Positions 3,210 through 62,417 of a stretch of 62,770 bases of DNA are shown here, in pieces. Below the pieces are notes generated by a model, which was given only the letters and a program-made list of their open reading frames with translations, was not told the origin of the DNA and ran no database searches. Each line of letters starts with the position of its first letter. The first letter of the stretch is position 1. This DNA comes from Planctomycetaceae bacterium. GTDB taxonomy: Bacteria; Planctomycetota; Planctomycetia; Planctomycetales; Planctomycetaceae. The translations under genes and the position numbers were made by a program. The stretch spans positions 1 through 62,770 of the forward strand of contig JAGQPY010000002.1 in the NCBI GenBank assembly GCA_020426485.1. Direction: 5' to 3'.

Positions 3210-5001
3210 TATTTTTATCAGCGCGATCTTTGGTTTCGAATCGGTCCAATTGAAGCCAGCTGATCTGTTCAGTTTGGTTGTTCACGACACCCAGTCTTTC
3301 CGGCCACGGAACATGTTGTCCGGTTACCCAGTTCGAAAACCGTATCCGTCCTTCATCAGTACCGGCCTGAATTGTCACATCAACTCCCACCGGCAACGGA
3401 GAGTTCGTTTGGAAGTACCATCGAGCCGTCAGCGTGCCGTCTTCAATCAGTAACGTGATGACTTCTTCTCCGGACGGCAACAGAATCTCGGTCCCGCGGT
3501 ATTCAACGCGTGAAAACGAAGCCGGATCGTTCTGAAACATTCGATGCCACAGCAGCGAGGCCGCCAGAAGACCATGGAATTCCGGCAGTTCGTTTTCAGG
3601 ATCGACGTCATCCCACGGTTGATACGCAGGGGGCCGGTTGAGGATCTGAAGTCCCGCGCCCGCAGGTCCGATCACCAGTTCACCTGCCTGCTGCTGACCG
3701 GAAACTGGCGCGGCAATTCGGCCGACCCATGTTTCACCGATTTCACCACTGCCAGTGAGTTGTTCCTTCAGAGCACGCAGAAGTTCCTCCTGCCGAATTC
3801 GGTTGAAATAGAAGTTAGTGTAGCCATCTTTCTGTTCAAACAGATGGGCATGTTCTTCCGGCACCGGGTTGCTGCGGGATTCTTCCGGCTGGTCCGGATC
3901 TTCATCCGGTGGAACCTCATGTTCTCCCGGCAGCTCCGGGGCTTTCTGAAAGCCATGCAGAGGCCCCAGTCTCAGTGTCGCATGGTGCACACCGGTCTTG
4001 TTTCGGTAGCTGAAGGGGACTCGAATACCTTCCGGATAGATCCCCAGAATGTTTTTGAATTCATTTGCAGAATTCACGCTGCGCCCTCCGAAACTGACGA
4101 GTTCGTCACCGGAACGCAGGCCTCGGCGCCAGGCTTCAGAGATTTCGGAGACCTGATCGATTGTCGCAATTCCATCAGACGTGGTGACCGTAAAGTCGGG
4201 CCGGGCGTGATCCACGATCCGCCCCGATTTCAGGTGCTCCACAAACAGCAGGACCTGATTCACCGAGATTGCATAGGCCGCTCCCGAATTGATGCGGCCT
4301 CGCTTTTCAAAGGATGCTCGACCGTTGATTCCGATCCATCGGCCCCGAATGTCAAAAAGCGGCCCACCTGAGTTTCCGGGATTGATGGATGCATCGATCT
4401 GGATGCAGTCGGTGTATTCCAGAAATGTGCCCGCCGGATACTGGTAGCGATGGACGCCGCTGACAATTCCAAAAGTCGTTGTTGGAGTAAAATCGGCGGC
4501 CAGAAGAAATGGATCTCCCAGGGCCAGCACTTCATCACCAACCGCCACATTGTTGCTGTCGCCAGGAACGCAGCACGGGAAATCGTCCCTTCCCAGAAGC
4601 TTGATGAGTGCCACGTCACCGGTCGGATCAATGCCCACGATGACTGCATCGTAAAGTCGGCCGTCATTCAGGCCGCACTTCATAAAGTTGCCGGAGCCGG
4701 ACGTGACGTGATAATTTGAAATCGCATAACCATCCGCGGATATCAGGACGCCGGATCCACCACCTTCGCCACTGGCCGGCATGACACAGACCACAGTCGG
4801 TGCGATTTTTTGAATGACGGCAATCCGCTCCGCTTCTTTCTGACGAACGGAGGTGTCCGACTGTGCTGTGACCGAATGCAGATTAACGCAGAACAGCACC
4901 GCGCTGACTATGATTCTGACGGACAATGTACGGAATCCGATACCGTGAAGGTCGCCCGGTTGGTATGTCTGACTGCGGAAGGTCGGCTGTGAGCTAATCA
5001 T
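3199..5001 (-). CDS. HtrA/DegP-like serine protease with a PDZ domain and a long C-terminal extension
   Basis: GSGVLISADGYAISNYHV, DVALIKLL and DASINPGNSGGPLFD form an intact triad context. PDZ-like RRGLRSGDELVSFGGRSV. The ATG at 5001 overlaps the upstream stop by 8 nt; the longest ORF starts at TTG 5064. Confidence 0.88.
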   Translation of the reverse strand: MISSQPTFRSQTYQPGDLHGIGFRTLSVRIIVSAVLFCVNLHSVTAQSDTSVRQKEAERIAVIQKIAPTVVCVMPASGEGGGSGVLISADGYAISNYHVTSGSGNFMKCGLNDGRLYDAVIVGIDPTGDVALIKLLGRDDFPCCVPGDSNNVAVGDEVLALGDPFLLAADFTPTTTFGIVSGVHRYQYPAGTFLEYTDCIQIDASINPGNSGGPLFDIRGRWIGINGRASFEKRGRINSGAAYAISVNQVLLFVEHLKSGRIVDHARPDFTVTTSDGIATIDQVSEISEAWRRGLRSGDELVSFGGRSVNSANEFKNILGIYPEGIRVPFSYRNKTGVHHATLRLGPLHGFQKAPELPGEHEVPPDEDPDQPEESRSNPVPEEHAHLFEQKDGYTNFYFNRIRQEELLRALKEQLTGSGEIGETWVGRIAAPVSGQQQAGELVIGPAGAGLQILNRPPAYQPWDDVDPENELPEFHGLLAASLLWHRMFQNDPASFSRVEYRGTEILLPSGEEVITLLIEDGTLTARWYFQTNSPLPVGVDVTIQAGTDEGRIRFSNWVTGQHVPWPERLGVVNNQTEQISWLQLDRFETKDRADKNNGR

Positions 5002-6331
5002 TCCGGACCACCATTCGTGCGTCGACGATATCCAGATAGTCGCAGACACTGCTTCCGTCGCCAAAATCGACCAGAATCGAGAGTGTAGAGACGTCCCGCA
5101 GACTCAGATCGATCGGTGTCGGCGTCGCGGTGGCCTGAATCAGTGCGCGATAGATTTCTCGCCCATCGGCTTCCATAATCAGCTCGACGGCTGACGACGG
5201 CTGGCCGCGTTGCTGATTGAATGCAACTTCATCGTCAACGCCGACGAGTGCTTTCAGTGATGAGTACCTGCCGTCAAGTGCGTACTGAATACGGGCTTTC
5301 GGGAAAATGCAGAGTCCTTTGCGATACCTCTTTCCTCGCAACGTCAGCGGCGGCCGCCCACTGTTGGCGAACACATCACGGGACATGCGCCAGAGACTGG
5401 ACAGACCCGTGCGAGTGTTCAGATCATCGTCGAACAACGGGCTCCACTCTTTTCCCTGTGGATCGAGACCAAAGTATTCTTCTGCGACAGGTTCCAGGTC
5501 AGACAGAAAGTGAACGCGACTGCTGCTGAAATCTATGCCGGTCGTCAGTGACAATGGACAGGATACGGTCTGGCCCCATGATGTCACGACGTTCAGGGTT
5601 TCGGAATCTCCGGTGACGCTCCGGACTCGTAACTCGGTCCCTTCCGTCAGGCTCAACCGAATGCTGCCGTTGAGCGGCGATTTGTTGTCCGATGACGCAA
5701 ACACGATTCCGGTGACTCGGTCCCTTGGAACCGGAATTTCATCACCATCCAGCAGAAACGGAATCTGATCGCTGTTGACTGCTGACACAAGGCCGGAAAG
5801 AAAATCCAGTCCACCTCCATCACTCTTTTCGATGATCAGCATGTCCTTCGTTACCTTTCGCTGCAGAAAGGCTTCCCATTGCCCCGTCCATTCTTCGTTA
5901 ACGGGCTTGAGCAGCACGGCCCGCACAGCCAATCGGTTGATGTCCAGTGCGCCCAGTGACTTTGTGCTGATGGTTGAGGTTGTGGCTGTGGCTGTAAATT
6001 CCGTTCCTGAGATTTCAGCCCCGTCTGTCAGCATCACGAGAATACTGTTTGCCGGATCCGGTGCGGTGTCTGTTGTCGCCATCCTGGACAGTGTCATGAC
6101 CTGTTCCAGCGGAACAGCCCTGGGCGGATCGTCTCCGCTTTGCAGAAATTCCGCGGACTCCGGAGTGATTCGTTTCAGTTCTGCCTGAAAGGATTGCCCG
6201 TCGAGCGTCGTGACTTCAACTCCAGATTGGAGTGAGACGGCGACTGCAAGAAATCTCACGAACAACAGCATTTGACCATGCCTTGTTTTGGAAACCTGTT
6301 GAATTGACCGCCAGTCCGACCGCAAATTCAA
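4994..6331 (-). CDS. Secreted protein with a C-terminal NPCBM/NEW2-like domain
   Basis: The C-terminus GKRYRKGLCIFPKARIQYALDGRYSSLKALVGVDDEV...ILVDFGDGSSVCDYLDIVDARMV follows the NPCBM pattern. The longest ORF starts at TTG 6331. The ATG at 6271 gives the signal-like MLLFVRFLAVAVSLQSG. Confidence 0.8.
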   Translation of the reverse strand: MNLRSDWRSIQQVSKTRHGQMLLFVRFLAVAVSLQSGVEVTTLDGQSFQAELKRITPESAEFLQSGDDPPRAVPLEQVMTLSRMATTDTAPDPANSILVMLTDGAEISGTEFTATATTSTISTKSLGALDINRLAVRAVLLKPVNEEWTGQWEAFLQRKVTKDMLIIEKSDGGGLDFLSGLVSAVNSDQIPFLLDGDEIPVPRDRVTGIVFASSDNKSPLNGSIRLSLTEGTELRVRSVTGDSETLNVVTSWGQTVSCPLSLTTGIDFSSSRVHFLSDLEPVAEEYFGLDPQGKEWSPLFDDDLNTRTGLSSLWRMSRDVFANSGRPPLTLRGKRYRKGLCIFPKARIQYALDGRYSSLKALVGVDDEVAFNQQRGQPSSAVELIMEADGREIYRALIQATATPTPIDLSLRDVSTLSILVDFGDGSSVCDYLDIVDARMVVRND

Positions 6332-48376: not shown

Positions 48377-48554
48377 AATGACTCCCTGAATCAACGCAGA
48401 TCAGCGACCTGTAGTTCTGCTGTGAGTCCGTTCGGCGATTTCTGCTGCCTTCGGTGAGCAATTCACGCCTGCCGGGCGACAAACGGCCGAACTGTCGTCG
48501 GGGTGTGCCGGTTGGTGCGATGGCAACAAATATCGCTGACGCTTCAGCGGCCCG

Positions 48555-49106: not shown

Positions 49107-49372
49107 AGAGTGTGCGATTCTGCCAGCAGAGATGCGTTTCCTGGATTCGACATCGTCAACGGGAAGCGATGACTCCGGACTCGACAATTGTTGACCGGGA
49201 AATCGGAACATCTGCTGCTTTTTCACTCCCCTGCCCCACTCTTCGGGTTGCGAATCGCATTCGTCTCGAAACAATCCCTGCAATTCGCAAAAGCCGAACC
49301 TGTCTGCGTGCGGATGGTCACTGCATCCCGGCTGATGCATTCGATACAGGACCTGAAATCGGAATTTCCTTC

Positions 49373-50555: not shown

Positions 50556-53500
50556 ATGCGGCAGCTCGACCCAAAATCAGGACTGCGATTATGCTGCGGG
50601 ATCAGGCTCGTCCTAGTGATCGTGCTGTTGCTGTTCAGCCACGCGGCTCGACTTCATGGTCAGGAGGGTGCCACATCGGCGGCGAACTCAGTTTCTTCAA
50701 TTGAGGTCATTCAGCGGAATGGCGAAACCGGCGAAACGATTCCTGTTCCCGGATTCAGTCCGGAACTTCTGAAGGAAATGCTCGATCGAGCTCAGCTTCA
50801 GGCGCACCCGCCGCTTTACCGAATTGAAGATCTCAAACTGCTGGGGCAGGTGTCTCAGGGGTTGGTTGATCTGAGGGTGCAGTTGCAGATTCAGATTCTC
50901 AGAGACGGGGAAGCAATCGCTGTTCCGCTGGGTTTCGAAGACCTGCAGCTCAGAGATCATGTTCACCGAACGGCTGTTTCCGGTGGCAGTGGCTATCCCA
51001 ACGTGGCAAGACTGCCCGTCAAGGAATGGATCTTCTTCGGCAAGGGCCGTCACGAGCTTGAGTTGACGTTTGTTGGTGTCGTGCGTTCCGCATTGAACGG
51101 AACACAGCGACTGACTCTGGCGGCTCCAAAGTCCGTTGTCAGTCATTTGCAGATCGGCTTTTCAGAACGCGTAACGGGTGTGACCTCGACCCCCGAAAAG
51201 CCGTTTGAGCTGTCTGTGGATGAGGCGGCAGCGACCTCCGCGCTTCAGATGTGGGGGTTGACAGAGTCGATTGAGATTTCATGGCTGACCCGGCCATCGG
51301 AGTCCGAGCAGACGGTCAATCTTCAGGCTTCCGCTGCTGCCGATATGCGATTGGATCTGACAACGGTACCGGCATCGCTTGCAGTCCGGCAGCCGCTCAA
51401 TATTTCCGGTGGCGCATTGAGTGAACTTCGAGTGCGTTTGCCGGCAGGATTTCGACAGGTTTCGATTGATGGTGTTGATGGGAACGGTAACTCGGTTGTC
51501 AAATCGGTATCGGTGACGACCGATGAAACAAACGAGGCGCTGATTACGTTAAACTCCGCCGTCACCGGCGCTTTAATTCTGAATTATGACCTTGGGCTGA
51601 AGGATACGGCTTACCCGCAGGAAATCACGGTTCAGGTGCCGGACGTTGAGAGTGTTTCGAATGAAACGGCGGATCTGGAAATCTACGTTCCTCGCGGTCT
51701 GGAATTTGATCGTCCGCGCGAGCACGCTGTTCGCAGCAAACGAGTGGAAACGTCTCGTGATCTGCGTACGGCTGCTTTGGCCTATCGATTGCTTTCCAGT
51801 GACAGTCGAATCCATCTGAAGGTCAGTGAAAGCGAAGTGTTTTTTGCCGTCTCTCCGCAGATCAGTTTTACAACAGAGCAGGACCAGATCCTCAAACGCG
51901 ATTCTGTGCTGGTCTCTGCTCGTTTTTCCGTCAACGTCATTCGTGGGTCATTGAACGAGCTGACCGTCCGTTGGCCCGGGTACCTCTCCGAAGGCTGGCA
52001 GATTCTTGCGGGTGACACTCGGCTGATTGCCGGGCAGACATCGACGCCGATTTCAGGGTTTGCGTCGCCGACAAATCCTGACGAGTTCACGATGGTTTTT
52101 CCGGAACGACAGTCCGGTCAATTCGAAATTGAGTTGCAGGGATTTCGTGATCTGGAATCGTTTCAGGCCGCAGAAGGACTCACCTACCTTCCGGAGATTG
52201 ATACGCCGACGGCACACTCTGCGATTGTGTCGCTGGTGGAATCGGACGAATACTCCATGTATCTCGTGCCCCTGGATGAGCAGCCATCGTTTCCTGTGCT
52301 TCCCTCCAACCGATGGCCCGAAAGCCTGAAAGCGGTCAAACAGCCACTAACGGCATGGCTGGTCGACGCTCCGGACCGGCCAATGCGGATTCGGATTACT
52401 CCGCAGCGTCCTGAGGTTCGAACCAGGATGCTGGTGGCAGTTTCTGTGGTGAATGAGAGCTTTCATGTTCGGGAAGTTCTGTCCTTTGACGTTCGGCACA
52501 GGGAACTTTCAGAGATCCAGCTTTCGGATATCGGCGCGTCACCGACAGTACGTCTGGAAGATGCCTCGGAGGCTCTGGAGAGAACGACATCCGATGGTGA
52601 GGCGTTAGTGTACAGTCTGCCTTCACCGATGCGTGGAAGCTTCCGTCTGATTGTCGATTACAACTGGTCAGGGCGAATTTCGCTGCAAACCGAAGAAAAG
52701 GCACCGGTCGCTGTGCCGCTCGTGTTGCCACTGGGATTTACGGAGGATATTTCGGAAATCGTTGTGGCGACAAACAGTCCGGAAAAGATTGTTCTGGATG
52801 GCTCGTCCGGCGGAACGCCGGTGTACTCCGAAGAGTACTCCGCTTCTTGGGTTCTGAACGATGTGCCGGAGACGCTGCCGATTCAACTGAGGCAGCCATT
52901 GTCAGCGGAAGAAATCACCGCGCCGCAGTTTGTTGTGGCAACCACCGTTGTGAATCCCCAGACGGTTATGACTCGCGTGACTGCAGTTTATGACAAACTG
53001 CCGGGCTCGGTTCTGTGTCGACTCAGCCGCGAAGCTGTTGCCTTGCGAGCTTCGATGAACGGCCGCGCGGCGAGTTTTGATCAGGTCGATGATGATGATC
53101 CTTCGTCGGTTTTGTTTCAGCTCACTCCGGCCCCCGATATCGTGCTGGATTCCCCCGCGGAAATCACGATCGTGACGCAGCAGATTCGAGATGACAGTGA
53201 GTGGAGGCAATCGATACTGCTGCCGGAGTTGCTGGGTGCCGAGGACTGCAATGTTGTCTGGATCGTTCCCCAGATTGCGGGGTACTCCATATTTCCGGTC
53301 AGCAATGGGGAGTTTAAGTTATCTCTGTCAGATTCGGGTGGGGCGAATCAACTGCATTCCGGTGAAGCACTGGCGCTGGCTCCTGTGATTTCGCCGTTTT
53401 CGCCGTCAGTACGAGAACGAATTCTGGAGATTGTTGATGATTCCGTTTCCGGAACGGACGCTTGTGAGGTGGTTCTTGGCACGATGATGGGAACCCGCCA

Positions 53501-53891
53501 GAAACTGTACACCTTGTCTCGCAGTCTGCTGTTGCTGATTGTGTCTGCCTGCAGTCTGGTGATTTACTTTCTTGTGCAGCGACTTGGGTTAGCGAACCTA
53601 TGTGCCATTTTCGTCGTTCTGGGGGCTGCTGCTGTCGGGATCACAGGATTCATACCGACCGCCGTCACGACATCGCTGATTCGATATCTGCCTCTCTTCG
53701 CGCTGGCAGCGATTGCGGCTGTTTTTCAGAGATATCTGAGTGGCTCACAGTCGCCGTTTCTCATGACTCCGTCTTCAGACGAGGGCAGTACGATTTTCGT
53801 CGTTGAGCCCGTGCAGCAGGCATTGAAAACGGCAGGGAACGGCACCTCCGCCCTTTCCGCGTCTCGTCCGTCAGGACTCAGTCCGACCTGA
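50556..53891 (+). CDS. Giant envelope protein A: signal peptide, ~950-aa ectodomain and a C-terminal cluster of three TM helices; no recognisable domain
   Basis: 1111-aa ORF. N-terminus LRLCCGIRLVLVIVLLLFSHAARLHGQ. TM cluster LLLLIVSACSLVIYFLV / LCAIFVVLGAAAVGITGFI / YLPLFALAAIAAVF at roughly nt 53520-53735. Confidence 0.85.
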   Translation: MRQLDPKSGLRLCCGIRLVLVIVLLLFSHAARLHGQEGATSAANSVSSIEVIQRNGETGETIPVPGFSPELLKEMLDRAQLQAHPPLYRIEDLKLLGQVSQGLVDLRVQLQIQILRDGEAIAVPLGFEDLQLRDHVHRTAVSGGSGYPNVARLPVKEWIFFGKGRHELELTFVGVVRSALNGTQRLTLAAPKSVVSHLQIGFSERVTGVTSTPEKPFELSVDEAAATSALQMWGLTESIEISWLTRPSESEQTVNLQASAAADMRLDLTTVPASLAVRQPLNISGGALSELRVRLPAGFRQVSIDGVDGNGNSVVKSVSVTTDETNEALITLNSAVTGALILNYDLGLKDTAYPQEITVQVPDVESVSNETADLEIYVPRGLEFDRPREHAVRSKRVETSRDLRTAALAYRLLSSDSRIHLKVSESEVFFAVSPQISFTTEQDQILKRDSVLVSARFSVNVIRGSLNELTVRWPGYLSEGWQILAGDTRLIAGQTSTPISGFASPTNPDEFTMVFPERQSGQFEIELQGFRDLESFQAAEGLTYLPEIDTPTAHSAIVSLVESDEYSMYLVPLDEQPSFPVLPSNRWPESLKAVKQPLTAWLVDAPDRPMRIRITPQRPEVRTRMLVAVSVVNESFHVREVLSFDVRHRELSEIQLSDIGASPTVRLEDASEALERTTSDGEALVYSLPSPMRGSFRLIVDYNWSGRISLQTEEKAPVAVPLVLPLGFTEDISEIVVATNSPEKIVLDGSSGGTPVYSEEYSASWVLNDVPETLPIQLRQPLSAEEITAPQFVVATTVVNPQTVMTRVTAVYDKLPGSVLCRLSREAVALRASMNGRAASFDQVDDDDPSSVLFQLTPAPDIVLDSPAEITIVTQQIRDDSEWRQSILLPELLGAEDCNVVWIVPQIAGYSIFPVSNGEFKLSLSDSGGANQLHSGEALALAPVISPFSPSVRERILEIVDDSVSGTDACEVVLGTMMGTRQKLYTLSRSLLLLIVSACSLVIYFLVQRLGLANLCAIFVVLGAAAVGITGFIPTAVTTSLIRYLPLFALAAIAAVFQRYLSGSQSPFLMTPSSDEGSTIFVVEPVQQALKTAGNGTSALSASRPSGLSPT

Positions 53892-53902
53892 GGAGCGGGA
53901 TC

Positions 53903-56900
53903 ATGCGTCTGCGATTGCTGATATCGATCCTGATCCTGAACTGCGTGAATTGGTGCAGTGCTCAGACGCCGCCGGCCCCTGCGTCCGGCGAGTCGTGGTA
54001 TCAGGGCGGATTTCTTTTTCGCAGGGTCTCTCCTGCGGATCTGGCGGCGCAGTTAAAGGGAGGCACGTACGTGCCGGTACGTCCCGACCAGTTTGATGAA
54101 CTGCTGAAGTCCCACAGTCGTGATCGATCTCGTTCGACAGACTGGAATGCGGTCCGAAAAGCGGAGTACCGCGCGACGCTGGTGAATGAATCTCTGGAAA
54201 GCGGAACGGTCGCGCTTGAACTCTACGGTCGCACGGATCAAAGCCCGCCGGAAAGGAGTATTCACCTGGGAGCTCTCAATCTGAGTGAACTTCGACTTTT
54301 TTCTCAGGGGGTCGAGGTTCCCGTCGCAGTCGATTCACAGGAACGGTCCGTGGTTTTGACCGAACGCCCTGCTTCTGCACTCACAGGGAGCTGGACGGCC
54401 ACTGGGACGATGAACGGGGAAGACCTGATTTTCCAGTTGCGACTTCCTCGCGCTTCGTTGTGTTCGTTTGAACTGGAAACCAGCCTGAACACTCAGGTGA
54501 CAAGTCCAAACGCTCTCGTGATTCCTTCTTCGTCGGATGACACGAAGTCGACCTGGCTGCTGATGCCGCGATCACCATCGCTCCTGACGCTTGTTTGTTC
54601 CCGTAACCTGAAAACTCGTGAATCGGAACTGACCGGTGTGAGTATTCAGGGGGACTATCGATTCGGTGAGTCACAGACGGAGATGAGCTGGTCGGTAAAT
54701 GTGCCGCGTACTCTGACGGACTGCGACCTGCAGTTTCTGATTCAACCCGGTTGTCAGATCGCGAAGGTGGACAGTACACCATTTCCTGGTCCTCAATGGA
54801 CCACTGCCGAGGTTGACGGCAATGTTGTTCTGAATATCAAAATGCCGCCACTGACCACGGCGGCGACGTTGGGAATTCTTGGTCGTAGTCAATTTCAGTT
54901 ATCCAAACTCTTTTCTTTGCCTGTCATTCGACCGATGACATATCGGTTGTCGGGGGGAACGACTGACCTTGACCTTCCCCTGCGTTTTTCCACATGCCGT
55001 TTGAATGTTGCCCCCGAACTTGCAATCAGTCATCTGGACCTGACCGATTTCCAGGAACGGGATGTGACCTATTCTTCTGATGGCGGGCAGGCGCTGGAAC
55101 TGGTTCAGAATTCTGCGGCCGCTGGCGCCGAGATCGGCCTGGTCGGAGCTCGGCCACTGGTTGAAGATTCTGTGGCAGTCGAGCTTGGAACCGGTAACGA
55201 CCGGAATATGGCGACAGCAAACGTCTTCGTTTCCGTCGCGACCGGCGCGCTGAGTGAGGTGAGCTGGAACATTCCTCGATCGTGGCGCGTGACCGATGTT
55301 TTTGAGGCGGATTCCCGGTTGCCACTGCTTTTCCAGATCGAAAGCCCTTCGGATGCATCGGGAGAAACACGCCTCACTGCTTTCCTGAGAAATCCACTGA
55401 CGACTCGTGCCGGTCAGCTGCTGACCATTGAAATGCAGTCCACGGAGAACCGAATCCGAGCAGGAATTCGACCTGCTTTGATTAACAGTCAGCAATATCG
55501 CCGTAAACAGAATCTGCTGATTGGTCCCGGCGAAGAACTGAGAACTTTTGGTGCTGACGACGGGATGTTCCTCAACGACGAGACCATCGAAACCATCACA
55601 ATGGAACTTGGCAGACTGGGAGTTAAGCCTGATCAGACGGTATCCATCGTATCGGTGGATGAACTGCAGGAATCCAGTGAAGAACGAAGTCCGGTTTCGT
55701 TGCTGTCCGGAAGCATTGACTATTCCGCCCTGATGAATCCGGAGAACTTTCTGCGAGAAAGTTTTCGGCTCAGGCTGCGTTCACAGGACGCCATTCCGGA
55801 ACGAGTCCCTCTGGCTGCATTGCCGGGACTCGAACTGACGATTTCAGATGTTTCCGTGACTCAGCCCACTCCATCGCTGAGGCCGGTGGCCAATGCCGGA
55901 TCGACGGAAAACTGGGTGATTGAGGTGCCGCCCGGGCTTTCACCCGGAAACCTGCTGGACATAACCTTAACCGCAACGCGACCGTTTCGCGATGGCCTGC
56001 CGATGGCATGGCTGTCCGTTCCTTCCGCAAGCACCATGACAGGAACACTTCGTCCACTGGACAATACGTCCGGAATTCAACTGCTGAGGACGGGTGAGCC
56101 GCTGGAAGTTGTGTCAGACGTGTTGCCATACCCGGACAGGAGTGCATTCGGCGGGTTTGTCTATCGAAGTAATGCCGCAACGGATTCTCGCCAGGACATT
56201 TCCGGAAACTCAGTGGTTTTGCTGGACGTCGCTTCGGGAGAAATGACCGGGACAGTCTTCAGTCATCTGCTGGTTCATTCATCAGATGCAAAGCCCTTCC
56301 TTGGACTTCGCCTGGACGGGGCTTCCGATTTGCGAGTCTTCGTCGATGGCAAAGCGACATATGCACACCAGTTGGACGATACATTGCGACTGGCACTGCC
56401 GGAAGGCCCCGGTATCTCGACGGTCGACCTCTTTTACCGAATTACACTTCACGAACAGGACACATCACTGGCGTACACTTCAATTGGTTTTCCCTTCAGT
56501 GACTCGGTCTACCATGTTCACGAAATTCTGCCACCGGTCGGATTTCTACTGGAGCCAGAGGTGGCACATGCCATGGTTGCCACCGGCAGAGACAGCGGTC
56601 AGCGTTTGGTCGCCGATTATTTCACTCGTCAGGCTTCTGACGCCGTCAGAGATTTTTCCCGCAGTTTTCGGTCTCGCTGGAATCAACGGCGTTTGCAGGA
56701 CGTTTCAGCAATCTGGCTGAAGATGGAAACGGGACAGTCCGTCGCCAGCCTGACAGTCATCAATACTCATGTTCGAACGTTTGTTGAACTGGCAGTGTTT
56801 GTGATTGTTCTGGTGCTGTGGCTGTACGTAGCCGGAGATCGCCGGTCGACCGCCGTTCCGGCCGTTGGACTCATGATCGGGGCACTATTGCTGATGTTAT

Positions 56901-59900
56901 CCGGAAGGACAGAATTCATTGGGCTCAGGGGGGCAGTCCTTGCGACGGTAACGTTCCTTGTGTCAAGGTTCGTTGTGCATTCAGTGCTGTCAGCCTGCCG
57001 AGCCGTGCAAAGAAGTCCGGGACCCTCGCTTGTCGCGCCGGCGACGGTTCTGCTTGTGCTGACGCTGCTCTCATTGAACGCTGCAGCGCAGACGTCCGGG
57101 AATTCGGCGATTCTTGTGCCGCACACATCCAACGGAGATTTTCCGCTGATTTATGTTCCACAGTCTGTTTACTCTCGCCTTGAAACAGAGGACAGGAGTG
57201 GTGGGGCGGGATGTCATGTGCTGGAAGTGAAGGCGAACGTTCATCTTTCGACTCGAGATCAGGCCGTGATCTCGATCGATTGTCTGCTGGCGGTTGATCC
57301 TGCAGCCGCGCCGGCATTCCGCATTCCTTTGTCGGGGGCAACGCTGTCGGAATGCTTTACTGATGGTGTCAGGACATGGCCTTCGCCGGATGGTCCGAAT
57401 GAAGTTCGGCTGGATGTTTCGTCCGCGCCGGTTATCGCCGTTAAGCCTTTGGTCGGGGGTGATGGCTCTTCCGCACCTGCTGAAACATCGGCTGCCGCTG
57501 CAGGACCGAATACGTTCGGCCAGTGGAACATTAAAACGGTTCGATACGTTGTTCGTGTTTCTGCCACAGAGCTGTCTGCGTTTGAAGATCGCATCAGCGT
57601 CACTCTTCCACCTGCAGCCACGACAGAAGTTCGCGTCAAAGATGATTCCCACGAGATCAGCCGAGTCGTTCTGGTTAATCGAGGTCGGACTTTTACCGAG
57701 CACACAACGGACGGGCAATGTCGCTTTCCACCGATCTACAATGCACGTGACATTGATTTGTACCTCCGCTCCGGCAATCGTCCTGCCGATGTTTCAGGTG
57801 AGGAAGATCTGAAGTCGCTGCTGGTAGACGTTGACGCAACTCCGACCCAGCTGAAAGTTGCTGCTTTGTATCGCCTGCCGCCGGCAGAAAGTGGTCTGCA
57901 GTCAGTCTCCGTCCGCCTTCCCCGCCGACGAAGAATTACTGCCGTTGAGACAACGACGGGAAATTCGGTCCCGTGGTCCGTCAGCGGCGATACTTTGCAG
58001 GTGCGGCCATCAGCAGGAGCGGATGGCTTTCGAAGGTTTGTGGTTCGAATGTTGCTGGAATACCCCGTCGAACTTCGGCATTCACTTCCGGTGGGTACCT
58101 TTGCGAATGTCGACGGAGAAAGAATGTCCAATGTGATCCTTGCTGTCAGTACGTCCGAGCAGTTTGTTGTTGGTGAGCTTTCATCCGCGGGAGTCAGTCT
58201 GTCAGAGCCCGATCCACAGCTTCTGAATCGACTGATCAGCGATCGTGGTAGTCCCGGAGCGTCCGAAACGTACGCTTTCGTTCCGCCGGAATCAGGTACG
58301 GTTGATGTTCTGATCGCACAGCGGGATACTTCGCTGGAAGTGACTCAGGTTCAGAATGTCACGGTGACTGACGACGAAATTCAGTGGAACTGTCGCTGTT
58401 CCATGGATGTTCGAGGGCAACCTGTTCTGCGACAGCAGTTTGAAGTTTCCCCGGAGGTCGATCTGGAAAGCGTCTCCGTTTCGACCAACAATTCGCCGTT
58501 GCTGCAGACCTGGACACGCAGTGCTGATCTGGTGATCGTCGCCCTGCGCGAGCCCACACGAGGCGTGTTGGAATTCAGTTTCCAGGGTGTGGCGAAACGC
58601 ACGCCACAGGCCAACCAGCCCCTTCCGACAATACGACCGGCGGGACACGTGCAGTTGCTGGAGTCCAAACTGGTTCTGCGAAGTGAAGCCGAATCGGATG
58701 TGTTTCTGCACGATCTCGGCAGTGGTACGCCTGATGTTGCCATTGATATCAGGGAGCAGCCACTGAGCGATGCTTCCATTCATCTGGACCTGACCGATGA
58801 CCTGCATCCACCCATTCTTGGTGCTCGGCTGGCAGGGCAGCTTCGCGTTGCCGGACTGCTGATCCTTCACGACGAAGGTGGTCCACTGCGGATTTCACAG
58901 TTGTGGCATTTGCAGAAAACGATGGCCGCATCTGAAGTTCGACTTGGATTTGCTGACGGCTCTCGACCCGCAATGTACCTGTATCTTGGCGAAGAGAGCG
59001 AAACGCTGCCAGCCAATGATGACGAGCTTCTGATTGCTGAATTTGCGGATTCAGCAGTGCTTGTTGTCGAAGACCAGGTGGTAACGGCGGGCAGCGGCGT
59101 CGTTGAATTCTCAATCCCCGTGTTTGCCGATGATCCTGAATCTCATGTCGTCGCATGTCTGGATTTTCGTGAAGGCCGACATATTCAGCGAACTCCCGTA
59201 ACAGTACCCGAATGGGCGCGGACCGTATTTGAAGAGCAATACCCCGATTTGGCAGCGCGCGCTTCATCTGCCGGATCCATTGAGCCCGGAACTGATGCCA
59301 GTGAAGGACGGGTTCGACTGGAGATTGAACCGCCCTTGAACGCTGACACGGAGGCACTGCCTGCGGGAGGTGCTCTGACGGGCATCGCCGTTCATCAGAT
59401 TGTTCAGCCTTCCGATGGCTCGCCGATGATCGAATCCTCTTTCGTCCTGGTTTCCGAACGTCGAGGCCGTGATGTCAGTTTTGTCATCTCGCCCGCCTTG
59501 TGCGTTCTGGATGTGCAGATTGACGGTCTGTCAGTTCCGTTTCGAATTGATGGTTCGCAGTTCCAGCTTTCACTCACAGACAATCTGCACCATATTCGCA
59601 TCAACAGCACTCTTTCCCTCGAAGGTAATCACTACGGATGGAGTTCTCCGGAGTTTCTGCCACTGACGGCTGGCATGAACGGGCCGGTCTTCGTGGCTGT
59701 CGAGTCGGACCGCAATGCTGCCGTTCGTCTGACTGATCGTGAGACTGTGGCAACGGAGAACGAATGGAAGGAACGGCTGACGGGAGCTTTGAGAGACCAT
59801 GTCACCGCCGTGGATCGTGCACTGTGGAGTGTGCTCGCGGATGAGCTGTCGATCAAAGGATCGAGTGCTTTGTCCGGGACCACGGTTTCCGAACAGTTGC

Positions 59901-60355
59901 GCGCGACGGCCACGGCAGTCCGGCGAACGCTGGAACTGAAGTGGACTCAGGATACTGTGTCCCGGAATGAACCATCGAGAACCATGCCTGTCATCGCAGA
60001 ATTCACGAATCTGTGGCACGGAGGCGATGATGAGCCGATCACAGCATTTTCCGTTCATCAGACTGCCCCACAGTGTCAGGTGCGATTTCGGGATCGCTTC
60101 GCAGCAGTCTGGAAACTCTCTGCACTCATTGGGATGCTGTTTCTGGTCAGCTTTCGTCGTCGTCGTGCACAGAATCCAGTGGTCGGAACGTCTGCACCCG
60201 GTCGCGACGAACCGATCGCTGCCTTCAGCAATTCGGGATCGATGCCGTCGTCGGCCATCAGATCGGCGTCTCAGGTCGGCTCTGAACCGCAGGCCAGTCC
60301 AGGCTCAGGATCAGGTGTCGCAACCGAGACCGGGAACGCTGACCTGACAGATTGA
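53903..60355 (+). CDS. Giant envelope protein B: two ectodomain modules separated by an internal TM cluster, plus a C-terminal TM anchor; no recognisable domain
   Basis: 2150-aa ORF, 11 nt after gene A, with GGAG upstream. Signal peptide MRLRLLISILILNCVNWCSAQ. Internal TMs at roughly aa 961-1063. C-terminal TM LSALIGMLFLVSF followed by RRRR. Confidence 0.85.
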   Translation: MRLRLLISILILNCVNWCSAQTPPAPASGESWYQGGFLFRRVSPADLAAQLKGGTYVPVRPDQFDELLKSHSRDRSRSTDWNAVRKAEYRATLVNESLESGTVALELYGRTDQSPPERSIHLGALNLSELRLFSQGVEVPVAVDSQERSVVLTERPASALTGSWTATGTMNGEDLIFQLRLPRASLCSFELETSLNTQVTSPNALVIPSSSDDTKSTWLLMPRSPSLLTLVCSRNLKTRESELTGVSIQGDYRFGESQTEMSWSVNVPRTLTDCDLQFLIQPGCQIAKVDSTPFPGPQWTTAEVDGNVVLNIKMPPLTTAATLGILGRSQFQLSKLFSLPVIRPMTYRLSGGTTDLDLPLRFSTCRLNVAPELAISHLDLTDFQERDVTYSSDGGQALELVQNSAAAGAEIGLVGARPLVEDSVAVELGTGNDRNMATANVFVSVATGALSEVSWNIPRSWRVTDVFEADSRLPLLFQIESPSDASGETRLTAFLRNPLTTRAGQLLTIEMQSTENRIRAGIRPALINSQQYRRKQNLLIGPGEELRTFGADDGMFLNDETIETITMELGRLGVKPDQTVSIVSVDELQESSEERSPVSLLSGSIDYSALMNPENFLRESFRLRLRSQDAIPERVPLAALPGLELTISDVSVTQPTPSLRPVANAGSTENWVIEVPPGLSPGNLLDITLTATRPFRDGLPMAWLSVPSASTMTGTLRPLDNTSGIQLLRTGEPLEVVSDVLPYPDRSAFGGFVYRSNAATDSRQDISGNSVVLLDVASGEMTGTVFSHLLVHSSDAKPFLGLRLDGASDLRVFVDGKATYAHQLDDTLRLALPEGPGISTVDLFYRITLHEQDTSLAYTSIGFPFSDSVYHVHEILPPVGFLLEPEVAHAMVATGRDSGQRLVADYFTRQASDAVRDFSRSFRSRWNQRRLQDVSAIWLKMETGQSVASLTVINTHVRTFVELAVFVIVLVLWLYVAGDRRSTAVPAVGLMIGALLLMLSGRTEFIGLRGAVLATVTFLVSRFVVHSVLSACRAVQRSPGPSLVAPATVLLVLTLLSLNAAAQTSGNSAILVPHTSNGDFPLIYVPQSVYSRLETEDRSGGAGCHVLEVKANVHLSTRDQAVISIDCLLAVDPAAAPAFRIPLSGATLSECFTDGVRTWPSPDGPNEVRLDVSSAPVIAVKPLVGGDGSSAPAETSAAAAGPNTFGQWNIKTVRYVVRVSATELSAFEDRISVTLPPAATTEVRVKDDSHEISRVVLVNRGRTFTEHTTDGQCRFPPIYNARDIDLYLRSGNRPADVSGEEDLKSLLVDVDATPTQLKVAALYRLPPAESGLQSVSVRLPRRRRITAVETTTGNSVPWSVSGDTLQVRPSAGADGFRRFVVRMLLEYPVELRHSLPVGTFANVDGERMSNVILAVSTSEQFVVGELSSAGVSLSEPDPQLLNRLISDRGSPGASETYAFVPPESGTVDVLIAQRDTSLEVTQVQNVTVTDDEIQWNCRCSMDVRGQPVLRQQFEVSPEVDLESVSVSTNNSPLLQTWTRSADLVIVALREPTRGVLEFSFQGVAKRTPQANQPLPTIRPAGHVQLLESKLVLRSEAESDVFLHDLGSGTPDVAIDIREQPLSDASIHLDLTDDLHPPILGARLAGQLRVAGLLILHDEGGPLRISQLWHLQKTMAASEVRLGFADGSRPAMYLYLGEESETLPANDDELLIAEFADSAVLVVEDQVVTAGSGVVEFSIPVFADDPESHVVACLDFREGRHIQRTPVTVPEWARTVFEEQYPDLAARASSAGSIEPGTDASEGRVRLEIEPPLNADTEALPAGGALTGIAVHQIVQPSDGSPMIESSFVLVSERRGRDVSFVISPALCVLDVQIDGLSVPFRIDGSQFQLSLTDNLHHIRINSTLSLEGNHYGWSSPEFLPLTAGMNGPVFVAVESDRNAAVRLTDRETVATENEWKERLTGALRDHVTAVDRALWSVLADELSIKGSSALSGTTVSEQLRATATAVRRTLELKWTQDTVSRNEPSRTMPVIAEFTNLWHGGDDEPITAFSVHQTAPQCQVRFRDRFAAVWKLSALIGMLFLVSFRRRRAQNPVVGTSAPGRDEPIAAFSNSGSMPSSAIRSASQVGSEPQASPGSGSGVATETGNADLTD

Positions 60356-60386: not shown

Positions 60387-62417
60387 CTATCGCACTTTTT
60401 CCTGCAATGCCCAGGCGGCGATGTGTTTCTGCAGGTCTTCGTCCCGAGTAATTTCAATAACACGGACACCGCCTGTCCGCAGCGCTGAAGTCGCGGCTGA
60501 CCGAAGTGCTCGCTGCTGTCGCGATTCCGTGCCGGAACTTACTGTCAGCAGAGACAGTCGTTTCGAGATCAGGGTTTCGGGCAGAGTGCCATGGAATACC
60601 GGCCATGTATCCAGAAACACGGCTCGGTTAACTGACTGTTGACGTGAGTTGGTCAGTAAGCTGAAGCACAGCTCAGATTGCCTGGGGCTCGACACAAAGA
60701 TGATCCGGTCCATGTCAATCGGTTGCCTCTGGCTGACCGCCGTCAGACATTCCTGAATCAACGTCATGTCTTCCGCCGTGAGGTCTGTGCGTTGCAGATT
60801 CTCAGGGCAGACCAGCATCAGATTGTGAGCCTGACAGGTTCGTTCCCAGTTGCGATAAACAACTTCGAACGGTCGATCGTTTTCGGAGAGCATGACCAGC
60901 ACTCCGAGCCGGGAAGATTGCTTTTCCTCGGGGCGGAAAATCCGCAGCGTCCCCTGCTCTGCGATCTGTTGTTCTTCCTGGCCCCACTTTGCATCCGGAT
61001 CAGATCCCGTGACTTGACGCACGAAGTCTTCGTTGAAACTCAAAACAGCGTTGGGTCTGGCCACCGCCTGAATCTCCGTTGTTGTGGTATCCGGAGAATC
61101 CGGTTTCGGTTTCCATTCAACGCTCACTGACGTCCCCGCAAAGGTGCGAGCCCGTTGACGAAATTCAGACCTTCCGGTGACGGGGGCCTCATTGATTTTC
61201 AAGATGACGCATTGATCCGTAAGACCCGCTTTAAACGCGGGCGAATCCGGAAGAACATTGACCACAACCGTGTCTTCCCTGCCGGAGTCCGCGATGGATC
61301 CTTCATCCGGCAGCAAGCCCAGTTGTCCCGGAACGGGAAGGTTGAGTTTGTCTGTCAGCGTGACGCTGTAGTCAGTTTCTTCCTCGTTACGAAGCGCGGT
61401 GATGTTCAGGGTTGTACCAGCGCTGGAACTTCGAATGATCGATTCAAAGATTCCAAATCGTGAGATCTGCTGTCCATTCACTCGCAGAATCTGATCGCCT
61501 GCCTTCAATCCGACCTTGTCGGCAGGAGAATCGGGAATGACTGCCGCAATTCGAATCTCAGGCTCAAGTGGGTTTCGTGTTGCGAACGAAGCGCCCAGCA
61601 CTCCCCGCAGCATGTCTGTGCCGTCAGTCAGTTTCTCAACGGCGATCAGCAGATCACGCGCCGGAATGGCGAATCCGATTCCCGAGTCATACCACTCCAC
61701 GCCGGCCGCAATCGAATCGCCTCGGTCCGTGGGAGACAGTGGGACCAGAAGTCCGGAAACACGACCGTCAACGGTCACCAGCGGGCCACCATAGTTGACG
61801 GGTGAAATCTTCGCATCTGTCTGGATGGCCAGCCCGTGTACGCGACCGACAGCACTGATGATGCCCACGGATATGGACGGTTCATTTCCGGGAAACAGAC
61901 GACCCATCGCGATTGCGTAGGCACCAGGTTCGGGCCACTGCTCTTCTATGAATGCAGGTGTTTGGAAGTCAGCGCCTTCGCACTTCAGCAGTATCAGGTT
62001 TCGAATCTGGTCTCGCGCGACGATCTCCGCGCTATGGCGATTTCCCTGAGCGTCCTCGACAAAGATCGCGGCGGCCTGACCTCGAACCGAAAAACTGCTT
62101 GTAACAATCAAGCCATCGCCGGGGACAGCAAGTCCGGTTGAGGTCTGAGAGGACACGACCGCCTGACTGGTGTCACCGCGCGTGATGGTCCGAATTCGAA
62201 CAACCGACGGTGCGACCTGAGCTGCGGCGGATCGGACGACAGCGTCCAGCTGTTCATTGGCGAACGTGGTCGAATACGTCAGCAATAGAACGATGGTACA
62301 GATTTTTGCAGATCGTCGAGGATACGGGTACGCACTCTCGGACATATCAGTTCGTGGATGTTGATCGTGATCCGGAATCCTGACGACTGAGTCGTCGTGG
62401 GTAACTTCAATTGACAT
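60387..62417 (-). CDS. Catalytically dead HtrA-like trypsin-fold protein with two PDZ domains and a C-terminal degenerate alpha/beta-hydrolase-like domain
   Basis: The sequence aligns along the whole HtrA core (APSVVRI.., GIGFAIP). The triad positions read F109 (IVTSSFSV), N140 (IRNLILLK) and Y209 (ISPVNYGGPLV). PDZ-like VGLKAGDQILRVNG and AGLTDQCVILKINE. An alternative ATG at 62345 gives a signal-anchor start. Confidence 0.88.
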   Translation of the reverse strand: MSIEVTHDDSVVRIPDHDQHPRTDMSESAYPYPRRSAKICTIVLLLTYSTTFANEQLDAVVRSAAAQVAPSVVRIRTITRGDTSQAVVSSQTSTGLAVPGDGLIVTSSFSVRGQAAAIFVEDAQGNRHSAEIVARDQIRNLILLKCEGADFQTPAFIEEQWPEPGAYAIAMGRLFPGNEPSISVGIISAVGRVHGLAIQTDAKISPVNYGGPLVTVDGRVSGLLVPLSPTDRGDSIAAGVEWYDSGIGFAIPARDLLIAVEKLTDGTDMLRGVLGASFATRNPLEPEIRIAAVIPDSPADKVGLKAGDQILRVNGQQISRFGIFESIIRSSSAGTTLNITALRNEEETDYSVTLTDKLNLPVPGQLGLLPDEGSIADSGREDTVVVNVLPDSPAFKAGLTDQCVILKINEAPVTGRSEFRQRARTFAGTSVSVEWKPKPDSPDTTTTEIQAVARPNAVLSFNEDFVRQVTGSDPDAKWGQEEQQIAEQGTLRIFRPEEKQSSRLGVLVMLSENDRPFEVVYRNWERTCQAHNLMLVCPENLQRTDLTAEDMTLIQECLTAVSQRQPIDMDRIIFVSSPRQSELCFSLLTNSRQQSVNRAVFLDTWPVFHGTLPETLISKRLSLLTVSSGTESRQQRALRSAATSALRTGGVRVIEITRDEDLQKHIAAWALQEKVR

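What the first reader, a model, noticed from the sequence alone, without database searches (positions are those of the whole stretch)
60387..62417. HtrA-like protein with all three catalytic residues replaced (His->Phe, Asp->Asn, Ser->Tyr), fused to two PDZ domains and a nucleophile-less alpha/beta-hydrolase-like domain
The N-terminal half aligns block by block with S1C/HtrA proteases, from APSVVRI through GIGFAIP. Three triad substitutions are visible. IVTNNHVV is IVTSSFSV (TTT codon at 62091-62093). DLAVLK is NLILLK. NPGNSGGPLV is SPVNYGGPLV (TAT codon at 61791-61793). The C-terminal ~200 aa follow an esterase/PHB-depolymerase-type pattern (LGVLVMLSEN...NLMLVCPE...IDMDRIIFVSSPRQSELCFSLL). 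Here SSPRQ sits where GxSxG is expected. So both enzyme-like domains look inactive while the peptide-binding PDZ domains are retained. That suggests a binding, scaffold or regulatory role rather than catalysis. The same window carries an intact HtrA-type paralog (3199..5001) and one with an atypical Ser motif (2088..3209).
Basis: seen in the sequence. Interest (0 to 1): 0.7.

Follow-up and report, generated by a model that had tools for sequence, protein, structure and literature searches.

The report
Conserved doubly dead HtrA-like protein
This gene encodes an exported HtrA-type "protease" that has lost all three catalytic residues and carries an equally dead esterase-like tail; it is conserved in hundreds of planctomycete species, usually next to one working HtrA protease and a second dead one, so it most likely binds damaged envelope proteins instead of cutting them.

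Summary
ORF 60387-62417 (-) encodes a 676-aa protein with an export signal, an HtrA/DegP-type protease fold, two PDZ domains and a C-terminal alpha/beta-hydrolase fold. HMMER alignments to DegQ and DegP place F109, N140 and Y209 on the catalytic His, Asp and Ser. This is not decay. In 170 full-length relatives the columns read F/aliphatic, K/R/Q/M/N and Y (168 Y, 2 F), never His, Asp or Ser. The family motifs occur in at least 597 species genomes of Planctomycetota. The dead protease domain is the most conserved part. The C-terminal domain (AF2 pLDDT 92.7) matches 550 PDB alpha/beta hydrolases but has no conserved nucleophile, acid or His, and occurs only in this fusion. New here: in most distant relatives the gene ends an operon-like cluster of NPCBM protein, active HtrA, small Ser-to-Ala pseudo-HtrA and this protein. 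The window holds all four, split into two blocks. In the Fuerstiella-like clade it instead follows a protein-isoaspartate methyltransferase. The giant ORFs are neighbours in only 13 of 61 loci and are always convergent. Best reading: a non-catalytic client-binding partner in extracytoplasmic protein quality control. It is a new variant of a known kind, the HtrA pseudoproteases such as MamO.

The parts
60387..62417 (-). Whole gene ('BIG' pseudo-HtrA), 676 aa plus stop codon
   Evidence: ORF listed. A 98%-identical 676-aa ortholog, P0001, is called with the same ends.
62259..62306 (-). N-terminal hydrophobic export segment, residues 38-53 (KICTIVLLLTYSTTFA). Residues 1-37 are unconserved and low-confidence, and Met25 is a possible alternative start.
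   Evidence: Kyte-Doolittle 12-mer score 1.91 at residue 39; 154 of 169 family members have such a segment. pLDDT is below 50 for residues 1-38.
61632..62237 (-). HtrA/DegP-type chymotrypsin-fold domain with no triad, residues 61-262. This is the most conserved part of the protein.
   Evidence: Pfam Trypsin_2, DegQ/DegP alignments, Foldseek DegP/DegQ at 1e-29. 39 of 202 columns are >=95% conserved.
62091..62093 (-). Codon TTT = F109, at the catalytic His position
   Evidence: The family column reads F154 L6 I3 W2 Y2 M1 A1 V1, with no His.
61998..62000 (-). Codon AAC = N140, at the catalytic Asp position
   Evidence: The family column reads K87 R36 Q18 M17 N8 S3 E1, with no Asp.
61791..61793 (-). 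Codon TAT = Y209, at the catalytic Ser position, inside the near-invariant motif QTDAKISPVNYGGPL
   Evidence: The family column reads Y168 F2.
61350..61631 (-). PDZ1, residues 263-356, with a conserved G-x-Phi-G carboxylate-binding loop (G272, G275)
   Evidence: Pfam PDZ_2 at residues 272-354. G272 and G275 are present in 170 of 170.
61056..61349 (-). PDZ2, residues 357-454, with a conserved G-[YFW]-L-G loop (G367)
   Evidence: Second PDZ stretch in Pfam, about 420-column structural match to two-PDZ DegP/DegQ, G367 present in 170 of 170.
60390..61055 (-). C-terminal alpha/beta-hydrolase-fold domain with no catalytic residues, residues 455-676
   Evidence: AF2 pLDDT 92.7 and pTM 0.90 with canonical beta/alpha order. 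550 PDB alpha/beta hydrolases match at E<=1e-3. No Pfam hit. Only 3 of 222 columns are >=95% conserved.
60678..60692 (-). S576-S577-P578-R579-Q580, the position of the nucleophile elbow between strand beta5 and helix alphaC
   Evidence: The 1auo GFSQGG elbow aligns here. DSSP gives strand 567-576 and helix 578-588. All elbow columns are variable in the family.
3199..5064 (-). 'ACT': active-type HtrA paralog with an intact His/Asp/Ser triad. It is the ortholog of the gene two positions upstream of BIG in distant relatives.
   Evidence: 45% identity and E=2.5e-160 to the Gimesia 584-aa ORF. The triad is invariant in orthologs.
2088..3209 (-). 'SMALL': second pseudo-HtrA (nucleophile Ser replaced by Ala, NNSGAAGG) with one PDZ. 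It is the ortholog of the gene immediately upstream of BIG in distant relatives.
   Evidence: 39% identity and E=2.8e-78 to the Gimesia 348-aa ORF. The nucleophile column reads A28 G7.
4994..6331 (-). NPCBM-domain protein, the first gene of the conserved four-gene cluster
   Evidence: Pfam NPCBM at 1.3e-19. E=4e-43 to the Gimesia 388-aa ORF. Cluster order shown.
50556..60355 (+). Giant ORF pair gA (50556-53891, 1111 aa) and gB (53903-60355, 2150 aa), convergent with BIG. They are recurrent but non-obligate neighbours.
   Evidence: No Pfam or NCBIfam hit. Homologs or size-equivalents lie convergent downstream of BIG in 13 of 61 loci.

Best explanation
The gene encodes an exported, DegP/DegQ-like protein: a protease fold, PDZ1, PDZ2 and an added alpha/beta-hydrolase-fold domain. 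Both enzyme folds have been catalytically dead since before the radiation of the Planctomycetia. It most likely acts as a non-catalytic, client-binding member of an extracytoplasmic protein quality-control module. The PDZ domains and the preserved but inert active-site cleft would hold unfolded or damaged envelope polypeptides without cleaving them. It would work alongside the active HtrA paralog (ACT) and the small pseudo-HtrA (SMALL), as a holdase, an adaptor or an allosteric partner subunit, in the way MamO supports MamE. The C-terminal pseudo-hydrolase is probably a structural or assembly module and not a ligand-specific site. What is shown: domain identities, loss of all catalytic residues, deep conservation, and the gene neighbourhoods. 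What is inferred: export, peptide binding without cleavage, and cooperation with ACT and SMALL.
For: The fold and domain order are DegP/DegQ-like. The triad columns never carry His, Asp or Ser in 170 relatives, and the Tyr at the Ser position is present in 168 of 170, with Phe in the other two. That suggests the aromatic ring matters and not the hydroxyl. The dead protease domain is the most constrained part, with 39 of 202 columns >=95% conserved. These include the oxyanion-loop motif SPVNYGGP and WYDSGIGFAIP. PDZ1 has 8 of 94 such columns, PDZ2 1 of 98 and the hydrolase-like domain 3 of 222. The PDZ binding loops are invariant and 154 of 169 members have an N-terminal hydrophobic export segment. 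At least 597 species genomes carry the family motifs. In 39 of 52 distant loci the gene is the last of a same-strand cluster NPCBM, ACT, SMALL, BIG, with a short SMALL-to-BIG distance (median 103 nt to the first aligned residue). ACT keeps the full triad in all orthologs while SMALL lacks the nucleophile. In the Fuerstiella-like clade the gene instead follows a protein-L-isoaspartate O-methyltransferase, a protein-repair enzyme, in 13 of 16 loci. There are published precedents. Protease-dead HtrA retains chaperone activity (PMC6892219, PMC3081313). The pseudoprotease MamO promotes proteolysis by its active paralog MamE (PMC4794232). The degenerate protease domain of DEG7 mediates oligomerisation (PMC3194040).
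Against: No biochemical data exist for any member. In this window, and throughout the Fuerstiella-like clade, the gene is unlinked from ACT and SMALL (here by about 55 kb), so an obligate hetero-oligomer is not required by the data. Export is inferred from hydrophobicity only. The neighbours BacA and GT4 and the giant membrane proteins could point to an envelope-assembly role instead of proteostasis. I could not inspect model coordinates, so the geometry of the F/N/Y cluster and the docking of the C-terminal domain are unknown.
Confidence: 0.55

Rival explanations
1. It is a stand-alone periplasmic holdase chaperone that acts independently of the active HtrA. The clustering with ACT and SMALL would reflect shared regulation only.
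For: In the window and in all 35 loci of the nearer clades (L001-L035), BIG is not adjacent to ACT or SMALL. Protease-dead HtrAs act as chaperones on their own (PMC6892219).
Against: The tight same-strand cluster with ACT and SMALL in 39 of 52 distant loci, across several families, argues for a functional link.
Confidence: 0.22
2. It is an envelope-assembly scaffold tied to the giant membrane proteins gA and gB or to undecaprenyl-linked glycan synthesis, and not to proteostasis. The PDZ domains and the pseudo-hydrolase domain would dock these partners.
For: Convergent giant ORFs of about 1,900-2,500 aa follow BIG in 13 of 61 loci, spanning both deep clades and the window. BacA is adjacent downstream in 11 of 17 near-clade loci and 6 of 63 distant ones, and GT4 lies upstream.
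Against: The giants are always convergent, so never co-transcribed, and are absent in 48 of 61 loci. BacA is missing from the window. Much of this synteny lies next to dnaA and may simply be a slowly rearranging origin-proximal region.
Confidence: 0.13
3. It is a cryptic enzyme that uses non-canonical residues, for example Tyr209 as nucleophile, or a Ser205/Lys203 or Asp244/Ser245 pair.
For: Y209, S205, D201, N208, D244 and S245 are invariant or nearly so, and the oxyanion-loop glycines are kept.
Against: Two members have Phe at the Tyr position. K203 is replaced by R, N, A or Q in 17 of 170 members. No His column exceeds 62%. No trypsin-fold enzyme with a Tyr nucleophile is known (own knowledge).
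Confidence: 0.06
4. It is a recently inactivated, decaying protease gene (a pseudogene in the making).
For: dN/dS against the 98%-identical contig is 0.52, but this rests on only 20 differences.
Against: The open frame is intact. The same substitutions are fixed in 170 relatives at 30-45% identity and in at least 597 species genomes, and many columns are invariant.
Confidence: 0.01

Closest known systems
DegP/DegQ (two-PDZ periplasmic HtrA proteases, MEROPS S1C)
   Same: Same fold and domain order: export signal, chymotrypsin-fold domain, PDZ1, PDZ2. The structural match covers about 420 columns at E=1e-29, with sequence E=2e-20. The GIGFAIP and oxyanion-loop GG motifs are conserved.
   Different: The His/Asp/Ser triad is replaced by Phe/Asn(Lys)/Tyr. 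There is an extra C-terminal alpha/beta-hydrolase-fold domain. The protein scores 138 bits against the 416-bit curated cutoff of TIGR02037.
MamO (HtrA-family pseudoprotease of magnetotactic bacteria; PMC4794232)
   Same: It is a bacterial HtrA-family member with a degenerate triad, retained under selection, encoded near an active paralog (MamE) whose proteolysis it promotes non-catalytically. Like BIG, it carries a second, non-protease domain.
   Different: MamO has a TauE transporter domain, a di-His metal-binding site and no PDZ. BIG has two PDZ domains, a pseudo-hydrolase domain and no conserved His. The NCBIfam MamO model is not among BIG's hits. The two are independent evolutionary origins.
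DEG7 / Nma111-type degenerate HtrA protease domain (PMC3194040)
   Same: A degenerate HtrA protease domain is kept for a structural role (oligomerisation) alongside an active one.
   Different: In DEG7 the dead and active domains are in one polypeptide. Here they are separate gene products (ACT, SMALL, BIG).
Protease-dead HtrA variants such as DegP S210A acting as chaperones (PMC3081313, PMC6892219)
   Same: They show that an HtrA scaffold without its nucleophile can still bind and protect unfolded clients.
   Different: Those are engineered single-residue mutants of bifunctional enzymes. Here all three residues have been naturally replaced and fixed across a phylum-level clade.
Non-catalytic alpha/beta-hydrolase-fold proteins (for example neuroligins and NDRG proteins; own knowledge)
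   Same: An alpha/beta-hydrolase fold that has lost its nucleophile, acid and His and is used for protein-protein interaction.
   Different: There is no detectable sequence relationship. This domain is found only at the C-terminus of this HtrA-like family.

Membership tests
HtrA/DegP serine peptidases (MEROPS S1C) | Chymotrypsin-fold protease domain homologous to S1C | tested here: met
   Pfam Trypsin_2 at 2.7e-15, DegQ/DegP at 2e-20, Foldseek at 1e-29.
HtrA/DegP serine peptidases (MEROPS S1C) | Catalytic His-Asp-Ser triad | tested here: not met
   The positions are F109, N140 and Y209. The family columns never carry His, Asp or Ser in 170 sequences. No His column exceeds 62% anywhere in the protein.
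HtrA/DegP serine peptidases (MEROPS S1C) | One or more C-terminal PDZ domains | tested here: met
   Two PDZ domains with conserved binding loops.
HtrA/DegP serine peptidases (MEROPS S1C) | Curated family score (NCBIfam TIGR02037 Do family, cutoff 416 bits) | tested here: not met
   138.4 bits.
HtrA/DegP serine peptidases (MEROPS S1C) | N-terminal export signal, extracytoplasmic location | tested here: inconclusive
   A hydrophobic segment at residues 38-53, also present in 154 of 169 members. No dedicated signal-peptide predictor was available.
HtrA/DegP serine peptidases (MEROPS S1C) | Trimer-based oligomers | not testable with these tools
   No multimer prediction and no access to model coordinates.
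MamO-type HtrA pseudoproteases | Degenerate catalytic triad retained under selection | tested here: met
MamO-type HtrA pseudoproteases | Encoded next to an active HtrA paralog | tested here: met
   39 of 52 distant loci have ACT and SMALL directly upstream. In the window the paralogs are present but about 55 kb away.
MamO-type HtrA pseudoproteases | Fused TauE transporter domain, a surface di-His metal site, and a match to the NCBIfam MamO model | tested here: not met
   No TauE hit, no conserved His, MamO model absent from the hits.
Alpha/beta-hydrolase fold enzymes | Canonical beta1-beta2 hairpin followed by beta3-alphaA ... beta8-alphaF topology | tested here: met
   DSSP element order in the model. 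550 PDB alpha/beta hydrolases match at E<=1e-3, TM about 0.6.
Alpha/beta-hydrolase fold enzymes | Nucleophile elbow Sm-x-Nu-x-Sm with conserved Ser, Cys or Asp | tested here: not met
   The elbow is SSPRQ. Family columns 577-579 are fully variable.
Alpha/beta-hydrolase fold enzymes | Conserved acid after beta7 and His after beta8 | tested here: not met
   The loop columns are variable, with no conserved Asp, Glu or His.
Alpha/beta-hydrolase fold enzymes | Match to a curated sequence family (Pfam) | tested here: not met
   None of 27 members hits any alpha/beta-hydrolase Pfam model. The best PDB profile hit is 1auo at E=0.048.
DEG7/Nma111-type degenerate HtrA domain | Degenerate and active protease domains within one polypeptide | tested here: not met
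   There is a single protease-like domain.

The most novel reading that the evidence does not exclude
Planctomycetia may possess a dedicated three-paralog HtrA machine: one catalytic subunit (ACT) plus two permanently dead subunits (SMALL and BIG), co-assembling into hetero-oligomeric cages. In that machine the dead subunits would capture clients and allosterically gate the single active one. BIG's pseudo-alpha/beta-hydrolase domain would act as a new cage-building or membrane-docking module. This would be a natural, phylum-wide separation of the chaperone and protease functions that DegP combines in one chain.
Probability: 0.2. Interest if true: 0.75.

Novelty: new variant of a known kind. 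Interest (0 to 1): 0.55.

Why it matters
HtrA proteins are the central ATP-independent quality-control factors of bacterial envelopes, and how they balance holding against cutting is a long-standing question. Here evolution appears to have hard-wired a "hold only" HtrA, in fact two of them, next to a "cut" HtrA across a whole bacterial class. That offers a natural system for studying the chaperone and regulatory functions of the HtrA scaffold apart from proteolysis. There is also a practical point. The family is present in at least 597 species genomes and is routinely annotated as "serine protease HtrA/Do" or "S1C family serine protease", which is almost certainly wrong as a statement about activity. 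The fusion of two different dead hydrolase folds in one chain is an unusual example for the pseudoenzyme field. The C-terminal domain has no curated family.

Tried and rejected
(1) I tried to recover the window's own contig beyond its end, to see the upstream gene. The exact protein is not on record, and the 98%-identical contig is only 2.9 kb with no upstream gene. Whether a PCMT gene precedes this copy therefore stays unknown. The last 353 bases of the window show no PCMT-like reading frame.

(2) dN/dS against the 98%-identical copy is 0.52, but it rests on 8 synonymous and 12 non-synonymous differences, too few to interpret. I relied on deep conservation instead.

(3) Pfam and NCBIfam scans of the C-terminal domain and of the giant ORFs gave nothing.

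(4) The promoter and terminator consensus scan around the gene gave no promoter-like site and only intragenic terminator-like matches, which is not informative.

(5) Literature searches for a planctomycete HtrA pseudoprotease found nothing relevant.

(6) I considered a relocated triad or a Ser/Lys dyad and rejected both on the column statistics.

Full report
THE OBSERVATION

The ORF at 60387-62417 on the minus strand is real and encodes 676 aa. Pfam finds a Trypsin_2 domain at residues 94-223 (E=2.7e-15) and two PDZ stretches. NCBIfam's best model is the Do/DegP family at 138 bits, far below its 416-bit cutoff. phmmer against all PDB sequences gives DegQ and DegP at E=2e-20. The printed alignments place F109 opposite the catalytic His (TNNH against TSSF), N140 opposite the catalytic Asp (SDIALL against RNLILL), and Y209 opposite the nucleophile position of GN[S/A]GG.

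IS IT DECAY OR DESIGN?

A search of 5.8 billion proteins returned more than 100 full-length relatives of 620-760 aa at 30-45% identity, all from Planctomycetaceae, Fuerstiella or Planctomyces sources. They are annotated variously as "PDZ domain-containing protein", "S1C family serine protease" or "serine protease Do".

I built an alignment of 170 full-length members. This set combines the first search with a profile search of the C-terminal domain against 1.84 billion cluster representatives. The catalytic columns read as follows:
- His column: F154 L6 I3 W2 Y2 M1 A1 V1
- Asp column: K87 R36 Q18 M17 N8 S3 E1
- Ser column: Y168 F2

The surrounding motif QTDAKISPVNYGGPL and the WYDSGIGFAIP motif are almost invariant. 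No column anywhere in the protein has His in more than 62% of members, so a relocated Ser-His-Asp triad is excluded. It returned 597 confirmed relatives in Planctomycetaceae, Pirellulaceae, Thermoguttaceae, Gimesia, Maioricimonas, Planctomicrobium and others. The substitutions are therefore ancient and under selection, and the pseudogene reading is refuted.

WHERE THE CONSTRAINT LIES

The dead protease domain is the most conserved part of the protein:
- protease-like domain: 39 of 202 columns >=95% conserved
- PDZ1: 8 of 94
- PDZ2: 1 of 98
- C-terminal domain: 3 of 222

Both PDZ carboxylate-binding loops are conserved, with G272, G275 and G367 present in 170 of 170. In addition, 154 of 169 members carry an N-terminal hydrophobic export segment, which in the window protein is residues 38-53. 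The two members with Phe instead of Tyr at the nucleophile position suggest that the aromatic ring matters and not the hydroxyl. That argues against Tyr-based catalysis.

THE C-TERMINAL DOMAIN

Residues 455-676 hit no Pfam family in any of 27 members. An AlphaFold2 model built from the family alignment is confident (pLDDT 92.7, pTM 0.90). It has the canonical alpha/beta-hydrolase order: a beta1-beta2 hairpin, then beta3-alphaA-beta4-alphaB-beta5-alphaC-beta6-alphaD-beta7-alphaE-beta8-alphaF. Foldseek against the PDB gives 550 matches at E<=1e-3. All of the best 50 listed are alpha/beta hydrolases, including cutinases/PETases, carboxylesterases, dienelactone hydrolases and DPP-IV, with TM about 0.6.

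A profile-to-PDB sequence search weakly recovers carboxylesterase 1auo (E=0.048) and aligns its RIFLAGFSQGG elbow with the family's RivlVAxxxQAeL. In the window protein this segment is S576-S577-P578-R579-Q580, between strand 567-576 and helix 578-588. Across 170 sequences the elbow columns, the acid loop after beta7 and the His loop after beta8 are all variable.

The profile search found the domain in 433 cluster representatives. Among the 150 listed, it lies at the C-terminus of 630-770 aa proteins or of shorter proteins that are probably fragments, so it appears to exist only in this fusion. Its few invariant residues (W524, R571, W669) look structural. I therefore favour an assembly or structural role over a specific ligand pocket, but this is inference.

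The full-length model (pLDDT 84.8, pTM 0.72) matches two-PDZ DegP and DegQ over about 420 columns at E=1e-29.

GENOMIC CONTEXT, THE MAIN NEW RESULT

I fetched 87 related loci, including one duplicate place and the 98%-identical 2.9-kb contig, and mapped neighbours by tblastn. Two arrangements emerge.

(a) In 39 of 52 more distant loci (Pirellulales, Gimesia, Maioricimonas, Thermoguttaceae and a complete chromosome) the gene, which I call BIG, is the last of a same-strand cluster of four genes:
- an NPCBM-domain protein of 390-445 aa
- ACT, an active HtrA of 584-656 aa
- SMALL, a small HtrA-like protein of about 350 aa
- BIG

The median distance from the SMALL stop to the first aligned BIG residue is 103 nt, which implies very short intergenic gaps. 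ACT keeps His, Asp and Ser in every scorable ortholog (34 of 34, 35 of 35, 36 of 36). SMALL has Ala or Gly at the nucleophile column (A28 G7 of 37) and keeps the His in only 18 of 37. The general pattern is one live and two dead HtrA paralogs.

The window contains unambiguous orthologs of all of them:
- NPCBM protein at 4994-6331 (E=4e-43 to the Gimesia ORF)
- ACT at 3199-5064 (45% identity, E=2.5e-160)
- SMALL at 2088-3209 (39% identity, E=2.8e-78)

Here the cluster has been split, and BIG lies about 55 kb away.

(b) In the Fuerstiella-like clade, which is closest to the window at 35-45% identity, BIG sits in the order dnaA(-), GT4 glycosyltransferase, PCMT, BIG, BacA. The methyltransferase is adjacent upstream in 13 of 16 loci and BacA adjacent downstream in 11 of 17. 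In Fuerstiella marisgermanici the gaps are 5 and 21 nt. That methyltransferase passes the curated cutoff for protein-L-isoaspartate O-methyltransferase, at 246.9 against 188 bits. Both contexts therefore place BIG beside protein-maintenance enzymes.

THE GIANT ORFS

Homologs or size-equivalents of the window's gA and gB pair follow BIG, always convergent, in 13 of 61 loci with at least 5 kb of downstream sequence. These include Gimesia and six near-clade loci. This is a recurrent neighbourhood, but it is not an operon and not obligate. The giants have no family match.

MECHANISM

This part is inferred. The protein is most likely exported and keeps an HtrA scaffold whose substrate cleft and PDZ domains still bind polypeptide but cannot cleave it. 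It would serve as a holdase, adaptor or allosteric partner in extracytoplasmic protein quality control, working with ACT and SMALL.

Published precedents support this reading. Protease-dead HtrA and DegP retain chaperone activity (PMC6892219, PMC3081313). The HtrA pseudoprotease MamO promotes proteolysis by its active paralog MamE without needing its own triad (PMC4794232). The degenerate protease domain of DEG7 mediates oligomerisation (PMC3194040).

The main uncertainty concerns BIG's relation to ACT. It may physically co-assemble with ACT, or it may act alone. Its separation from ACT and SMALL in the window and in the Fuerstiella clade shows that co-transcription is dispensable.

COMPARISON AND NOVELTY

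The protein is an S1C homolog but fails the defining catalytic-triad test and the curated family cutoffs. It should be filed as a non-peptidase homolog. It works like MamO in principle but is not a MamO family member: it has no TauE domain, no di-His site, no match to the MamO model, and a different origin. I found no paper describing it.

I rate it a new variant of a known kind, the HtrA pseudoproteases. It is distinguished by four features:
- complete triad replacement, including a fixed Ser-to-Tyr change
- fusion to a second, otherwise unknown pseudo-alpha/beta-hydrolase domain
- membership of a conserved "one live, two dead" HtrA gene cluster
- spread across hundreds of species, with widespread mis-annotation as a protease

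Interest is moderate, 0.55. The inactivity claim is solid in silico, and the functional model is plausible but untested.

Noticed in passing
window 2088-3209 (-): The 373-aa HtrA paralog is itself a pseudoprotease. Its nucleophile motif is NNSGAAGG, with Ala on the Ser column. Orthologs show A28/G7 at that column and keep the catalytic His in only 18 of 37. It is a conserved family in its own right, always located between ACT and BIG in distant relatives.
   Followed up: partly
window 3199-5064 (-), residues ~360-621: The active HtrA paralog (ACT) has a C-terminal extension of about 260 aa after its single PDZ, with no Pfam match. The extension is conserved in the Gimesia ortholog, where the alignment spans the full length.
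   Followed up: no
L001 1598-2815 (Fuerstiella marisgermanici CP017641); also L004, L005, L006 and others: The protein-L-isoaspartate O-methyltransferase upstream of BIG has a hydrophobic, signal-like N-terminus and an extra C-terminal region of about 170 aa. An exported PCMT would need S-adenosylmethionine outside the cytoplasm, which is odd and unexplained.
   Followed up: partly
window 50556-60355 (+): The giant ORF pair gA (1111 aa) and gB (2150 aa, with a signal-like N-terminus and hydrophobic segments mid-protein and near the C-terminus) matches no Pfam or NCBIfam family. The pair is nonetheless conserved, convergent to BIG, from Fuerstiella-like genomes to Gimesia.
   Followed up: partly
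window 43885-49340 (-): A Tad/Flp-type pilus gene set: CpaF-like T2SSE ATPase, TadE/G-like protein, RcpC/CpaB, and an A24 prepilin peptidase. An A24 peptidase also lies near BIG in L002, L023 and L026.
   Followed up: no
L005, L006, L010-L012, L014, L019, L020, L027, L030, L031: In the near clade BIG lies within about 3-4 kb of dnaA, and in F. marisgermanici at the very end of the chromosome record. The locus is therefore origin-proximal, which may explain part of the conserved synteny.
   Followed up: no
L042 (3.5-kb contig binned as 'Candidatus Kuenenia sp.'): A PCMT+BIG pair typical of Planctomycetaceae sits on a very short contig assigned to an anammox MAG. This is probably a binning error and not evidence that the family occurs in Brocadiia.
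   Followed up: no
P0022, P0042 (family members): Two family members carry Phe instead of Tyr at the former nucleophile position (DAKISPVNFGG).
   Followed up: no
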